Below are positions 44,434 to 46,418 of a stretch of DNA of 64,000 nucleotides, in pieces. The stretch is taken from assembly GCA_963774265.1 (NCBI GenBank), contig CAVZDU010000001.1:448001-512000 (forward strand), in the 5' to 3' direction. Under the pieces are notes generated by a model, which worked only from the letters and a program-made list of their open reading frames with translations, made no database searches and was not told the origin of the DNA. Source of the DNA: an uncultured Chloroflexia bacterium (GTDB taxonomy: Bacteria > Chloroflexota > Anaerolineae > CG2-30-64-16). The translations under genes were made by a program, and so were the position numbers. Each line of letters opens with the position of its first letter. Within the stretch, counting starts at the first letter, position 1.

Positions 44434-45564
44434 AGAGTTTTCTCGTAGATGCGATAGGTCTTGTAGCGCACGCCGCCAAGACGTTCGATGATTTGATTCA
44501 TCATCGTGTTGGTTTCCAGGATCCAGGATCCTTCAAGCCGCTTGTACCCACGGCGCAGCGCTTCCTCGGCGGTCTCCAGGTAGAAGATAGCGTCTGCGCC
44601 GCGACCGCGGTACTCCTCCATCATGCCCATGATCATCAGACGCACCTGGTCAATGTGGCGCCTGTGCCAGAGAAATTTGGGCAGGCCGAAGGGCCACATG
44701 TGACCGCCGCCCGACCGTTTGAGCGCCTGGTGCAGGTCGGGCATGGTCAGCGAGACCCCAGCGGGTTTGCCGTCTTCCGTTTCAGCAACGAAGATCAGGT
44801 TGGGATCGATCATGGGTTTGAGACTGGCCGCGAGATGGTCGATCTCATGATCGGTCATGGGCACAAACCCCCAGTTCTTCTGCCAGGCGCCATTATACGC
44901 CGCCTTGATTTTGATGACTTCTTCGTCGAAATGCTTCATGTCGATCTTGCGTACGCGCAGACCCTGCTTTTCAGCGGCCTTCCTGGCAACGCGGCGTAGC
45001 TTTTCGGGCGCCTCGGCCAACCCCTTTTCAATGTCCGAGAGCCAGGCATAGAGATCCATCGCCTTTATATAGCCAGCGTTTTCGATGAGATTTGGATAGT
45101 AGCGAGGGTTGTGTGTCATCATGAGCATTGGCGGTGTGTCGAACCCGTCGATCAGCGTTCCCACTTCGTCGTTCATGGAGAAGTTCAAAGGGCCGCGGAT
45201 AGCTTTCATCCCTTCCTGACGACACCAATTCTCGGCAGTCTCAAGCAGCGCATCTGCCACAGCCTGATCGTCGATGCACTCGAAGAATCCCCAGCCGCCG
45301 GCTAACTCGTTGTGCACCTGGTTGTGACGGTCATTGACCAACGCGCCGATGGTCCCCACCACCTCACCGAGCGCGTCGGGCTATGAAGAGCTGGTAGCGA
45401 GTATGCTCGTATAGCGGGTTCTTTTTCGTGTCGAAATAGGCCAGCCGTTCCTCGATCAGGGGGGGCACCCAGCAAGGATCGTCTTTGTACAGCCTGAACG
45501 GGAACTGGACGTATTCCACCATGCCCTTACGGGAATTGACGGGCTCGATGACGATATTGTTCAT
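44430..45564 (-). CDS. GNAT N-acyltransferase of bCerS/YghO type (candidate bacterial ceramide synthase); frameshifted near 45371
   Basis: FPFRLYKDDPCWVPPL, GFFECIDD, IRGPLNFS, GFDTPPMLMMTHNPRYY, NWGFVPMT, EYRGRG, SWILETN. Confidence 0.75.
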
Positions 45565-46418
45565 GATGCCTCCCCTGATGCGACTTCTCTTGAGGACTGC
45601 TGCGCGCGTTTGCGCCGTGAACGGGCGATGAGCCGATCCAGGACCGAGAATTGAAGGTCTCCCAGGAAATTCGCCAGATGTGCGACCGCGGTCATTTCAA
45701 TCCCAGGCGTGATCGAATAGCGTTTGTGCCTTATCCCGTCGACGATTGAACGCGCTACGATTTCGGGTGAGATAACGGTGCCGCCATACACGTCGCGCGT
45801 TTCCGGCGGTTTGTAGGGCATCTCCCCGGCAAGTTGCGGTGTGTCAGTATCGGGTGGGTAGACGACTGATACGTGGATATTGTACGGCTTGAGCTCGAGT
45901 CGCAGCACATCGGAGAGGCCCCGCAGCGCGTGCTTGGAGGCGCCATACGCCGAGTAGCCGAACACGCTTAGCAGCGCCGCACCCGATGCCACGTTGACGA
46001 TGTGTCCGGATCCACGCGCGATCATCCCCGGCGTTACAGCCCGAATCGTATGCAGCGCGCCGAAGTAGTTGATGTCCATCATCTCGCGAAAGACGGCGAG
46101 ATCGAGTTCTTGGAAATAGCCTGGCCGGGAGACGCCGTGCGAATTGATGATGATATCCGGCAAGCCGGCAACGCGCGTCACCTCCGCCACCGCGAACGCC
46201 GCCTGGTCCGGGTCGGCGACATCTGCAGGTATGACACCACACTTTTGGTCAGAGCACTCACAAGCTGCCTGAACCTCGGGCAGTGCATCCGCGAGGCGCC
46301 CTGGTGTGCGCGCCACCAGCCAGACATGCGCTCCCTCTCGGGCGAAGTGTCGAGCCGTTGCCAGTCCGATGCCGCTCGAACCGCCGGTGATGAGAATGAC
46401 TTGGTTACGGAAGGTCAT
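45561..46418 (-). CDS. Classical SDR, 3-ketodihydrosphingosine reductase (KDSR/FVT1/Tsc10)-like
   Basis: [44 protein letters not shown]..KPPET; start placed downstream of an extended -10 TGtTATAAT (46473-46468). Confidence 0.78.
   Translation of the reverse strand: [285 protein letters not shown]

What the first reader, a model, noticed from the sequence alone, without database searches (positions are those of the whole stretch)
45561..46418. Bacterial SDR carrying the eukaryotic KDSR signature
Seen: [42 protein letters not shown]...KPPET, with a hydrophobic then basic C-terminus. From memory, human KDSR has a closely similar segment (FG..AY.ASK.A.RGL...L..E.KPYN......YPPDTDTP.......KP.ET). 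Inference: a true KDSR-family member physically linked to spt. That bears on whether bacterial and eukaryotic sphingolipid pathways are purely convergent, and on where eukaryotic KDSR came from.
Basis: partly seen in the sequence, partly recalled or inferred. Interest (0 to 1): 0.75.

Follow-up and report, generated by a model that had tools for sequence, protein, structure and literature searches.

The report
Eukaryote-type sphinganine reductase in Chloroflexota operon
A soil-type Anaerolineae bacterium carries, at the head of its ceramide-synthesis operon, a reductase that is a true relative of the enzyme eukaryotes use for the second step of sphingolipid synthesis, which suggests this step is not purely convergent between bacteria and eukaryotes.

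Summary
Window 45561-46418 (minus strand) encodes an intact 285-aa classical SDR with the quoted motif.

It belongs to the KDSR/Tsc10 family:
- It is 36-44% identical to 13 named eukaryotic KDSRs.
- It is the reciprocal best hit of an amoebal KDSR (188 bits against 102 for the next paralog).
- It sits in a clade with eukaryotic KDSRs (bootstrap 99), apart from other SDRs.
- It shares PPDTDTP..E..KP residues that outgroups lack.

The gene heads a conserved operon: SDR, bCerS-type N-acyltransferase, HpnA/CerR-like extended SDR, Spt, C1 peptidase. The frame breaks in spt and the acyltransferase gene are probably assembly errors.

New points:
- KDSR-like SDRs lie directly beside Spt-like or other α-oxoamine synthase genes in several phyla, and one protein fuses the two.
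- Within the window's own family the SDR is dispensable: it is absent from 6 of 6 inspected genomes that keep the rest of the operon.
- Eukaryotes fall inside the bacterial radiation, but bacterial monophyly is not formally rejected (AU p = 0.061).

Enzyme activity is untested. Partial precedent exists: JGI annotation, PfSgaC in Pseudomonas, and an earlier scan note on a spirochaete.

The parts
45561..46418 (-). KDSR/Tsc10-family classical SDR, 285 aa (P0001): candidate NADPH-dependent 3-ketosphinganine reductase
   Evidence: Pfam adh_short, E 1.8e-49. Reciprocal best hit with amoebal KDSR. Clade support 99/92. Motif counts. Catalytic tetrad N117-S145-Y158-K162, TGGSSGIG and A36-R37 all present. 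AlphaFold2 pLDDT 96.8.
46468..46496 (-). Promoter-like site (TTTGCA-17-TATAAT with TG) between the helicase stop and the SDR start
   Evidence: Consensus scan, 10 of 12 matches. This is a pattern match only.
44430..45564 (-). bCerS-type (double-GNAT) N-acyltransferase gene. Its ATG overlaps the SDR stop (ATGA). The frame is broken by one extra base near 45369-45371 in this assembly.
   Evidence: Junction read. Intact 377-aa ortholog in L099. It is 35-40% identical over full length to the GNAT gene 2-8 kb from Spt in 4 of 6 alphaproteobacterial Spt loci, and the match is reciprocal. Relatives' contigs lack the extra base in 3 of 3 covering runs.
43453..44433 (-). HpnA/CerR-like extended SDR (NAD-dependent epimerase/dehydratase family), 326 aa: second candidate ketoreductase
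   Evidence: Pfam Epimerase, E 5e-36. NCBIfam HpnA 333.5 bits, below the 367.65 cut-off. Only 27-33% identical to the CerR-position gene of alphaproteobacterial Spt loci, and reciprocity is inconclusive. It stays in the operon where the KDSR-like SDR is missing.
42263..43442 (-). Spt-like α-oxoamine synthase gene, frame-broken by one extra base at about 43080 in this assembly
   Evidence: NCBIfam Spt-CFB is the best model: 350.8 bits for the C-terminal part, and 525.8 bits for the intact ortholog in L099 against a cut-off of 640. Break located. Contigs in 4 of 4 runs lack the base.
41152..42249 (-). Papain-like (C1) cysteine peptidase, the conserved last gene of the block
   Evidence: Pfam Peptidase_C1, E 2.7e-07. 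Found downstream of Spt in 10 of the 15 relatives' loci that keep the four-gene order; the other 5 loci mostly end at contig edges.
41136..41153 (-). Terminator-like hairpin after the peptidase gene
   Evidence: Pattern scan. This is a pattern match only.
46499..49138 (-). MrfA-like DEAH helicase, a conserved upstream neighbour; probably not part of the pathway
   Evidence: Pfam DEAD, MZB and Helicase_C. Conserved synteny.

Best explanation
The gene encodes a soluble, cytoplasmic or peripheral classical short-chain dehydrogenase/reductase. It is a genuine bacterial member of the KDSR/Tsc10 family (3-dehydrosphinganine reductase, EC 1.1.1.102).

Most likely it uses NADPH to reduce the C3 keto group of 3-ketosphinganine, the product of the Spt-like enzyme encoded in the same operon, giving sphinganine. 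The bCerS-type acyltransferase encoded immediately downstream, and translationally coupled to it, can then N-acylate sphinganine to dihydroceramide.

The operon therefore allows the eukaryotic order of steps (condense, reduce, acylate) using a eukaryote-type reductase and a bacterial-type ceramide synthase. The co-encoded HpnA/CerR-like extended SDR could support the Caulobacter order (condense, acylate, reduce). The KDSR-like gene is an accessory module on a core bCerS-epimerase-Spt cluster.

Shown: family membership, operon linkage, recurrent pairing with α-oxoamine synthases. Inferred: substrate, cofactor, order of steps.
For: Family membership:
- P0001 is 36-44% identical to 13 of 13 named eukaryotic KDSRs.
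- Named eukaryotic KDSRs are in the best 150 of 155,133 hits.
- The amoebal KDSR P0271 retrieves Cyanobacteria and Chloroflexota SDRs at 45-50% identity, interleaved with animal and plant KDSRs.
- In the window's genome the best hit of P0271 is this gene (188.3 bits), against 102.1 for the next paralog. P0001's own best paralog scores 92.3 bits.
- The best single-domain solved-structure hit by sequence is Cryptococcus Tsc10, 8jat (100.8 bits), against 90.9 for the next.
- The KDSR-like clade of 74 rows has support 99/92 against near-outgroups and paralogs.
- Shared derived residues are listed; the catalytic tetrad and A36-R37 are.
- 30 of the 120 listed close homologs carry JGI's name '3-dehydrosphinganine reductase'.

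Functional coupling to an α-oxoamine synthase (AOS):
- The operon order is conserved in 15 of 17 relatives' loci.
- The SDR stop and the acyltransferase start overlap as ATGA.
- An AOS lies within 300 bp on the same strand in 14 of 29 loci with SDR at 200 bits or more, in 6 of 33 at 130-200 bits, and in 0 of 18 below 130 bits.
- The partner is Spt-like in Chloroflexota, a deltaproteobacterium, a spirochaete and Limnothrix.
- P0207 is an AOS + KDSR-like fusion, and P0137 is a KDSR-like + acyl-activating enzyme fusion.

The acyltransferase is bCerS-type.
Against: - No enzymatic or lipid data exist for this protein.
- No curated NCBIfam model reaches its cut-off: 214 families hit, all below threshold.
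- Foldseek ranks HSD17B13 and generic SDRs first, and Tsc10 (8jat) is not among the 50 rows listed.
- The SDR is not needed for the cluster. 6 of 6 inspected same-family genomes without it keep helicase-bCerS-epimerase-Spt, and only 17 of 35 Spt-positive relatives have it.
- A second reductase candidate sits in the same operon, so the SDR could be redundant or act on another substrate.
- Many KDSR-like SDRs have no AOS within the fetched flanks (15 of 29 at 200 bits or more have none adjacent). Some partners are BioF-like AOS of unknown specificity, so the family is not restricted to sphinganine.
- Spt and the acyltransferase are frame-broken in this assembly.
- The intact Spt ortholog scores 525.8 bits, below the curated Spt cut-off of 640.
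Confidence: 0.7

Rival explanations
1. The SDR reduces the N-acylated 3-keto intermediate (oxidised ceramide) after bCerS has acted. On this reading it is a functional alternative to CerR rather than a 3-ketosphinganine reductase, and the HpnA-like extended SDR does something else, such as head-group or sugar chemistry.
For: - The Caulobacter model places acylation before reduction (passages of PMC11087976).
- The SDR gene is translationally coupled to bCerS.
- The extended SDR's orthology to CerR is inconclusive. It is the best hit in only 3 of 4 reciprocal tests, with margins of 6-18 bits, and its best family is HpnA.
Against: - Genomes lacking the SDR keep bCerS-epimerase-Spt (6 of 6). That fits the extended SDR being the cluster's resident reductase.
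- In 12 Chloroflexota loci the SDR pairs directly with Spt, with no acyltransferase between or beside them. An AOS-SDR fusion also exists. Both point to the free α-oxoamine as the substrate.
- Family membership with KDSR, whose substrate is the free base.
Confidence: 0.13
2. The SDR acts on a different ketone: the product of another α-oxoamine synthase (the genome has a second AOS at G000 C1:105,641-106,784), or an unrelated lipid. Its position at the head of the operon would then be an accessory or recently inserted arrangement with no role in ceramide synthesis.
For: - The gene is present or absent without disturbing the rest of the operon.
- KDSR-like SDRs pair with BioF-like AOS in Cyanobacteria and Rhizobia, and are fused to MFS or FAD-oxidase domains in other proteins. 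So the family's substrates vary.
- A second AOS paralog exists.
Against: - The position and orientation are conserved in 15 of 17 loci across several genera, at 53-81% SDR identity.
- The ATGA coupling to bCerS.
- Its closest relatives outside the family are the SDRs directly adjacent to Spt-like genes.
Confidence: 0.1
3. The resemblance to eukaryotic KDSR reflects transfer from eukaryotes into bacteria, followed by spread among bacteria. On this reading the gene says nothing about the origin of eukaryotic KDSR. This rival concerns only the evolutionary reading, not the function.
For: - Bacterial monophyly (eukaryotes outside) is not rejected: AU p = 0.061.
- Relations among eukaryotes, Chloroflexota, Cyanobacteria, Alphaproteobacteria and Actinomycetota are unresolved in the careful tree.
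- The root depends on distant SDR outgroups with long branches.
Against: - With outgroup rooting, 12 bacterial rows branch below a node with support 99/91 that unites eukaryotes with the other bacteria. These rows are Deltaproteobacteria, a spirochaete, Gammaproteobacteria, Smithella and the AOS fusion.
- Eukaryotes form one clade (97/93), not several.
- The held-together tree is 40.5 log-likelihood units worse.
- The bacterial proteins lack the eukaryotic membrane anchors.
Confidence: 0.2
4. It is an ordinary SDR whose KDSR-like motif is chance or general SDR conservation.
For: - Pfam and NCBIfam give only generic SDR names.
- Foldseek does not single out Tsc10.
Against: - Reciprocal best hit with an 86-bit margin.
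- Clade support 99/92.
- Motif residues are absent from 0-1 of 9 near-outgroups and 0 of 7 paralogs.
- Only 710 of 155,133 hits reach E 1e-30, and eukaryotic KDSRs are among the top 150.
Confidence: 0.02

Closest known systems
Eukaryotic 3-ketodihydrosphingosine reductase (KDSR/FVT1; yeast and fungal Tsc10; EC 1.1.1.102)
   Same: - Same SDR subfamily by reciprocal best hit, clade and signature residues (PPDTDTP, E199, K203-P204, R166, S/C at position 93).
- 36-44% identity to 13 named KDSRs.
- Tsc10 (8jat) is the best single-domain solved-structure hit by sequence.
- Sits directly after an SPT-type condensation step.
   Different: - No N- or C-terminal hydrophobic anchor.
- Encoded in an operon with a bacterial-type ceramide synthase instead of working with Lag1/CerS-type enzymes.
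- Dispensable in sister genomes.
- Activity untested.
- Human KDSR and yeast Tsc10 sequences were not on hand, so they were not compared directly.
PfSgaC, an SDR in the PKS-type sphingolipid gene cluster of Pseudomonas fluorescens MYb115 (PMC12134224; passages read)
   Same: A bacterial SDR in a sphingolipid gene cluster, described there as sharing homology with eukaryotic KDSRs and proposed to reduce 3-ketosphinganine.
   Different: - That cluster makes the base with a PKS/AOS enzyme. Here the partner is a stand-alone Spt-like enzyme, together with bCerS-type and CerR/HpnA-like genes.
- Its supplementary figures S11-12 could not be seen.
BT_0972 of Bacteroides thetaiotaomicron, and the 3-ketocapnine reductases (KCRs) of Chryseobacterium and Alistipes (PMC9278070 and PMC11211663; passages read)
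   Same: Bacterial SDRs shown experimentally to reduce the 3-keto product of an Spt-like or CFAT α-oxoamine synthase.
   Different: - Those enzymes are only about 16-30% (BT candidates) and 21-27% (KCRs) identical to Tsc10/FVT1.
- According to those papers they are not clustered with their AOS genes.
- The window's SDR is about 40% identical to eukaryotic KDSR and is operon-linked.
- Their sequences were not on hand and were not compared.
CerR (CC_1164/CCNA_01222) of the Caulobacter Spt-bCerS-CerR pathway (PMC11087976 and PMC11324152, passages read; Stankeviciute 2022 recalled, not held)
   Same: The ketoreduction step of bacterial ceramide synthesis. The window's operon also holds an extended SDR in the CerR role and position.
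   Different: - CerR is an NDUFA9-like extended SDR, reported to be periplasmic and to act after acylation.
- P0001 is a classical SDR of another subfamily with no signal-like hydrophobic segment.
- The literature states that bacterial CerS and CerR seem to lack eukaryotic orthologs (PMC11324152). This SDR is the opposite case.
Spirochaete GNAT / KDSR-like SDR / Spt-like operon noted earlier in this scan (e1-4892374)
   Same: The same enzyme classes, and the same idea of a mixed pathway: bacterial ceramide synthase plus eukaryote-type reductase. My locus L059 (Spirochaetaceae) shows SDR directly followed by Spt, with a GNAT homolog 3.6 kb upstream.
   Different: The window's operon has a fourth gene (HpnA/CerR-like extended SDR), lies in Chloroflexota, and shows presence/absence variation of the SDR.

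Membership tests
KDSR/Tsc10 family (3-dehydrosphinganine reductase, EC 1.1.1.102) | Classical SDR core: TGxxxGxG cofactor motif and N-S-Y-K catalytic tetrad | tested here: met
   TGGSSGIG at 11-18. N117, S145, Y158 and K162 are conserved (S, Y and K in 53 of 53 bacterial and 20 of 20 eukaryotic rows). Pfam adh_short, E 1.8e-49.
KDSR/Tsc10 family (3-dehydrosphinganine reductase, EC 1.1.1.102) | Reciprocal best similarity with annotated eukaryotic KDSRs rather than other SDR subfamilies | tested here: met
   Forward. Reverse. In the own genome, 188.3 against 102.1 bits. The eukaryotic references are named by databases (Acanthamoeba, Balamuthia, animals, plants) and are not themselves assayed proteins. 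The solved and named Cryptococcus Tsc10 is the best single-domain PDB hit.
KDSR/Tsc10 family (3-dehydrosphinganine reductase, EC 1.1.1.102) | Monophyly with eukaryotic KDSRs to the exclusion of other SDRs | tested here: met
   A 74-row clade with support 99/92 in the careful tree; 95 and 92 SH-aLRT in the quick trees. Outgroups were 7 own-genome paralogs and 9 near-outgroup SDRs only. Fungal Tsc10 and human KDSR were not included.
KDSR/Tsc10 family (3-dehydrosphinganine reductase, EC 1.1.1.102) | Subfamily signature after strand β6 (PPDTDTP ... E ... KP) and R166 | tested here: met
   Column counts. For example P189 is 49/53, 19/20, 3/9, 0/7, and D190 is 43/53, 20/20, 0/9, 0/7. That this block is a 'signature' is my reading of the alignment, not a published definition.
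KDSR/Tsc10 family (3-dehydrosphinganine reductase, EC 1.1.1.102) | NADPH-dependent reduction of 3-ketosphinganine to sphinganine | not testable with these tools
   There is only indirect support: R37 after strand β2 (52/53 bacterial, 20/20 eukaryotic rows), which by the recalled SDR cofactor rule suggests NADP(H), plus the linkage to Spt.
KDSR/Tsc10 family (3-dehydrosphinganine reductase, EC 1.1.1.102) | Membrane anchoring by terminal hydrophobic segments, as in eukaryotic KDSR | tested here: not met
   No 19-aa window with Kyte-Doolittle 1.6 or more in P0001; 12 of 13 named eukaryotic KDSRs have an N-terminal one. This is an architectural difference, not a catalytic-family criterion.
KDSR/Tsc10 family (3-dehydrosphinganine reductase, EC 1.1.1.102) | Closest solved fold is Tsc10 | tested here: inconclusive
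   Foldseek's top hits are HSD17B13 (8g9v, E 4.1e-22, TM 0.78) and generic SDRs. 8jat is not in the 50 rows listed. Classical SDR folds are too alike to discriminate subfamilies.
Bacterial ceramide cluster (Spt + bCerS + CerR) | Spt-type α-oxoamine synthase | tested here: inconclusive
   The best NCBIfam model is Spt-CFB (525.8 bits for the intact ortholog), well above BioF (365.6) and Kbl (338.2) but below the curated cut-off of 640. This matches the 'Spt-like' clade concept of PMC11334938.
Bacterial ceramide cluster (Spt + bCerS + CerR) | bCerS-type GNAT N-acyltransferase | tested here: met
   35-40% identity over 377 aa to the GNAT gene 2-8 kb from Spt in 4 of 6 alphaproteobacterial Spt loci. 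Reciprocal best hit at 219-225 bits against 169-174 for the paralog.
Bacterial ceramide cluster (Spt + bCerS + CerR) | CerR-type (NDUFA9-like) extended SDR reductase | tested here: inconclusive
   27-33% identity (64-74 bits) to the Spt-adjacent extended SDR of alphaproteobacterial loci. It is the best own-genome hit in 3 of 4 tests, with narrow margins. NCBIfam's best model is HpnA at 333.5 bits, below the cut-off of 367.65.
BT_0972 / KCR-type bacterial 3-keto reductases | Sequence relationship to BT_0972 or the validated KCRs | not tested
   No sequence of these proteins was available through the tools. Only the identities published in PMC9278070 and PMC11211663 were read.

The most novel reading that the evidence does not exclude
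The Spt + KDSR-like gene pair is adjacent in several bacterial phyla and fused in one protein. It may be an old bacterial two-step module for making long-chain bases, and eukaryotes may have inherited both of their first two sphingolipid steps from such bacteria. Only the later steps (CerS against bCerS, and the CerR route) would then be convergent. On this reading the window's operon is a living hybrid that carries both reduction solutions, and the presence/absence of the KDSR-like gene among sister genomes is a natural experiment on which route is used.
Probability: 0.3. Interest if true: 0.8.

Novelty: new variant of a known kind. Interest (0 to 1): 0.6.

Why it matters
The current picture, in the papers I could read, is that bacteria and eukaryotes share only the Spt step. 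Bacterial ceramide synthase and reductase 'seem to lack eukaryotic orthologs' (PMC11324152), and the few validated bacterial 3-keto reductases are remote, unlinked SDRs (PMC9278070, PMC11211663).

This locus, and the wider pattern it led to, show a different case. A bacterial SDR clade about 40% identical to eukaryotic KDSR is repeatedly placed next to Spt-like genes in Chloroflexota, Deltaproteobacteria, Spirochaetes and Cyanobacteria.

That has three consequences:
- 'Convergent or inherited?' becomes testable for step 2 of the pathway.
- It offers soluble, anchor-free KDSR homologs for biochemistry and structure work.
- It gives natural strain pairs with and without the gene for lipidomics.

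It also matters for reading environmental lipid data, since Anaerolineae were recently tied to ceramides in the Black Sea (PMC11334938).

Tried and rejected
- **Homopolymer idea.** I first thought both frame breaks lay in homopolymer runs. Reads place them at 43080 (context CTGAG) and 45369-45371 (context GCTCGG), so that idea was wrong.
- **Pseudogene reading.** I rejected real decay of spt and the acyltransferase gene as the main reading. 15 of 45 genes compared are split over frames in this assembly. G007 has a different extra base 15 nt away. Relatives' contigs lack the extra bases. Real strain-specific mutations are not excluded.
- **Fold search.** It does not discriminate SDR subfamilies.
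- **NCBIfam.** No model is above its cut-off for the SDR, and there is no hit for the acyltransferase.
- **CerR orthology of the extended SDR.** Inconclusive.
- **AU test of bacterial monophyly.** p = 0.061, not significant. The group was also defined after seeing the tree.
- **Sister group of eukaryotes.** The quick trees put a Cyanobacteria/Alphaproteobacteria/Actinomycetota group as sister to eukaryotes. The careful tree does not resolve this.
- **Named control genomes.** Those of the genome search (Caulobacter, B. thetaiotaomicron) give no handles. Named CerR, bCerS and BT_0972 could therefore not be fetched.
- **Stankeviciute 2022.** PMC8891067 is not held.
- **Sequencing runs.** They held only small shares of the stretch (0.16 at most). 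I draw no habitat conclusion from them.
- **Protein Atlas look-ups.** They gave only generic names plus '3-dehydrosphinganine reductase family' clusters; these are leads only.
- **No complex-prediction job was sent.**
- **Literature searches** for a described bacterial KDSR-family/Spt pairing, or a bacterial origin of KDSR, found only PfSgaC, BT_0972 and the KCRs. Supplements were closed and subscription papers are not covered.
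Full report
**Observation**

Window 45561-46418 translates on the minus strand into an uninterrupted 285-aa protein (P0001) that contains the quoted segment. It is a classical SDR: Pfam adh_short, E 1.8e-49. No NCBIfam model reaches its curated cut-off; 214 families hit, all below threshold.

The start at 46418 is supported in two ways. Relatives of 284 aa cover 100% of the protein. A promoter-like TTTGCA-17-TATAAT site at 46496-46468 has a -10 box that overlaps the alternative upstream ATG.

**Is it a KDSR-family member?**

- The closest homologs (54-84% identity) come from Anaerolineae/Chloroflexota metagenome genomes. 30 of the 120 listed carry JGI's automatic name '3-dehydrosphinganine reductase', and 5 carry NCBI's 'SDR family oxidoreductase'.
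- An exhaustive HMMER scan of 1.84 billion representatives gave 155,133 hits at E ≤ 0.001 but only 710 at E ≤ 1e-30. Among the best 150 were 317-343-aa proteins with the SDR domain starting at residue 25-70.
- Of 10 such proteins looked up, 3 clusters carried names and all 3 were eukaryotic: Acanthamoeba castellanii 3-ketodihydrosphingosine reductase, the glaucophyte Gloeochaete, and an MMETSP transcript.
- The reverse search with the Acanthamoeba protein (P0271) returned bacterial SDRs at 45-50% identity (Nostoc, Calothrix, Hydrococcus, Oscillatoria, Chloroflexota). These were interleaved with animal and plant KDSRs at 37-41%.
- In the window's own genome, the best hit of P0271 is this gene (188.3 bits), against 102.1 for the next paralog. 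P0001 finds no paralog above 92.3 bits.
- P0001 is 36-44% identical to all 13 named eukaryotic KDSRs over 221-273 residues.
- Among solved structures, the best single-domain sequence hit is Cryptococcus Tsc10 (8jat, 100.8 bits), against 90.9 for the next.
- The careful tree has 89 rows: 53 bacterial KDSR-like, 20 eukaryotic or eukaryote-like, 9 near-outgroup SDRs and 7 own-genome paralogs. In it the KDSR-like proteins form a clade with ultrafast bootstrap 99 / SH-aLRT 92. The quick trees gave 95 and 92.
D190 is present in 43/53 bacterial and 20/20 eukaryotic rows and in 0/9 near-outgroups and 0/7 paralogs. E199, K203, P204, P189 and R166 behave alike.
- The catalytic tetrad, TGGSSGIG and A36-R37 are conserved.
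- Foldseek on a confident model (pLDDT 96.8) ranks HSD17B13 and generic SDRs first and does not list 8jat among 50 rows. The fold does not discriminate subfamilies.
- Unlike 12 of 13 named eukaryotic KDSRs, P0001 has no strongly hydrophobic segment. It looks soluble or peripheral.

**Context**

On the same strand, tightly packed, lie these genes in order:

| Gene | Window coordinates |
|---|---|
| MrfA-like helicase | 46499-49138 |
| KDSR-like SDR | 45561-46418 |
| double-GNAT acyltransferase | 44430-45564 |
| HpnA-like extended SDR | 43453-44433 |
| Spt-like α-oxoamine synthase | 42263-43442 |
| papain-like C1 peptidase | 41152-42249 |

The SDR stop and the acyltransferase start overlap as ATGA. 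The order SDR, GNAT, extended SDR, Spt is conserved in 15 of 17 loci fetched from relatives that have the SDR. Of the other two, one has SDR directly followed by Spt, and one has the SDR alone.

The acyltransferase is bCerS-type. Its intact ortholog is 35-40% identical over its full length to a GNAT gene lying 2-8 kb from Spt in 4 of 6 alphaproteobacterial Spt loci. That is the layout PMC11324152 describes for cerS. The match is reciprocal: 219-225 bits against 169-174 for a paralog.

The extended SDR resembles the Spt-adjacent CerR-position gene only weakly: 27-33% identity, and best hit in 3 of 4 reciprocal tests by narrow margins. Its best curated family is HpnA, below the cut-off.

The intact Spt ortholog scores best with the Spt-CFB model at 525.8 bits. 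That is above BioF and Kbl but below the cut-off of 640.

**The two frame breaks**

Spt and the acyltransferase each carry one extra base in this assembly, at about 43080 and about 45369-45371. The evidence points to assembly errors, although real strain-specific mutations are not excluded:

- Short-read contigs of close relatives lack the base in 4 of 4 runs for spt, and in 3 of 3 covering runs for the acyltransferase.
- The relatives' genes are in one frame: Spt in 14 of 15 loci and GNAT in 13 of 15.
- G007 has an extra base at a different site 15 nt away.
- 15 of 45 genes that I could compare with relatives are split over frames in this assembly.

**A wider pattern**

I fetched 80 bacterial loci with an alignment of the family and looked for an α-oxoamine synthase (AOS) gene within 300 bp on the same strand.

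| SDR score to P0001 | Loci with adjacent AOS |
|---|---|
| ≥ 200 bits | 14 of 29 |
| 130-200 bits | 6 of 33 |
| < 130 bits | 0 of 18 |

Some loci are cut by contig ends, so absences are soft.

- In 12 Chloroflexota loci the SDR is directly followed by an intact Spt that is 64-73% identical to the window's C-terminal part.
- In a deltaproteobacterium (L053), a spirochaete (L059) and Limnothrix (L028) the partner also scores best as Spt.
- In Microcystis, Acaryochloris, Rhizobium and Stappia, and in the fusion protein, the partner is a BioF-like AOS of unknown specificity.
- One representative (P0207, 744 aa) fuses an AOS domain to the KDSR-like SDR. Another (P0137) fuses the SDR to an AMP-binding acyl-activating enzyme. 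Of the 10 long forms checked, the rest were double SDRs, MFS or FAD-oxidase fusions, or had no second domain.

This recurrent pairing is the main evidence that the family reduces the 3-keto group of AOS products.

**The SDR is accessory**

Among 41 relatives, 35 have an Spt ortholog at 62% identity or more. Only 18 have the SDR at E ≤ 1e-40, and 17 of those are Spt-positive.

In 6 of 6 same-family genomes without the SDR whose Spt contig was long enough to inspect, the block helicase, bCerS-type, extended SDR, Spt is intact. The SDR is simply missing, leaving a gap of 167-648 bp. Two further genomes (G010, G017) have Spt too close to a contig end to tell.

In 6 genomes of other families, Spt stands without these neighbours in 5, and next to an extended SDR in 1.

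So the core cluster is bCerS, extended SDR and Spt. That fits the extended SDR being the resident, CerR-like reductase. The KDSR-like gene is an add-on that offers a second, eukaryote-order route. The alternatives are redundancy or another substrate.

**Evolution**

In the careful tree, eukaryotes form one clade (97/93). They sit in a 62-row group (99/91) with Chloroflexota (96/81, including the window), Cyanobacteria (99/99), Alphaproteobacteria, Actinomycetota and others, and the branching order within that group is unresolved. Twelve bacterial rows branch below this group.

Forcing all bacteria together costs 40.5 log-likelihood units, but AU p = 0.061, and the group was defined after the tree was seen. 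A bacterial origin of eukaryotic KDSR is therefore favoured but not shown. The window's lineage is not identified as the donor. Fungal Tsc10 and human KDSR were not in the tree.

**What is known**

- Passages read in PMC9278070: BT_0972 is a functional reductase found among candidates only about 16-30% identical to Tsc10/FVT1.
- PMC11211663: the 3-ketocapnine reductases are 21-27% identical to Tsc10 and unlinked to their AOS genes.
- PMC12134224: PfSgaC, an SDR in a Pseudomonas PKS-type sphingolipid cluster, shares homology with eukaryotic KDSRs. The paper calls this step unusual in bacteria.
- PMC11087976 and PMC11324152: they describe the Spt/bCerS/CerR pathway and say that bacterial CerS and CerR seem to lack eukaryotic orthologs.
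- PMC11334938: 218 Chloroflexota MAGs encode Spt-like proteins, and Anaerolineae correlate with ceramides. 'KDSR' occurs 0 times in that text.
- Five literature searches found no description of a KDSR-family SDR paired with Spt in Chloroflexota, or of the hybrid operon. Supplements were closed, and Stankeviciute 2022 was not held, so what I say of it is recalled.

**Verdict**

The gene is a new bacterial member of the KDSR family, sitting in a new variant of the bacterial ceramide operon that combines a eukaryote-type reductase with bacterial-type enzymes. Function is inferred, not shown.

Noticed in passing
window 43080 and 45369-45371; G000 genome-wide: This assembly carries many single-base frame errors. 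15 of 45 genes compared with relatives' ORFs are split over more than one frame, including spt and the bCerS-type gene here. Gene calls in this genome should be read with that in mind.
   Followed up: yes
L138-L143 (G012, G013, G015, G016, G018, G023) against window 45561-46418: The KDSR-like gene shows presence/absence variation at the head of an otherwise conserved operon within one bacterial family. It is present in 17 of 25 genomes, absent with intact context in 6, and undecidable in 2.
   Followed up: partly
P0207 (744 aa) and P0137 (764 aa): Natural fusion proteins exist: an α-oxoamine synthase domain + KDSR-like SDR, and a KDSR-like SDR + AMP-binding acyl-activating enzyme. Their source organisms are unknown.
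   Followed up: partly
L010, L017, L031 (Cyanobacteria); L045, L046, L050 (Rhizobium/Pararhizobium): A BioF-like α-oxoamine synthase of unknown specificity lies directly upstream of a KDSR-like SDR in bacteria not known, to my recollection, for sphingolipids. This suggests undescribed 2-amino-3-hydroxy lipids or metabolites.
   Followed up: partly
G000 C1:105,641-106,784; C1:207,614-208,746; C10:162,812-163,924: The genome holds a second Spt/AOS-like gene (301 bits to the Spt-CFB model) and two paralogs of the bCerS-type acyltransferase outside the window. Two of these three are also frame-split.
   Followed up: no
window 41152-42249 (-) and 46499-49138 (-): A papain-like C1 peptidase directly after spt, and an MrfA-like DEAH helicase directly before the operon, are conserved in synteny across the family. 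A role for the peptidase in the lipid pathway is unexplained.
   Followed up: no
L032, L036, L043 (Smithella and related Deltaproteobacteria): An extended SDR (25-31% identical to the window's HpnA-like protein) sits directly upstream of the KDSR-like SDR, with no Spt in the flanks. This is another pairing of the two reductase types.
   Followed up: no
window 38876-41135 (+): A GAF-PAS histidine kinase and an OmpR-type response regulator converge on the end of the operon. No link to the cluster was tested.
   Followed up: no
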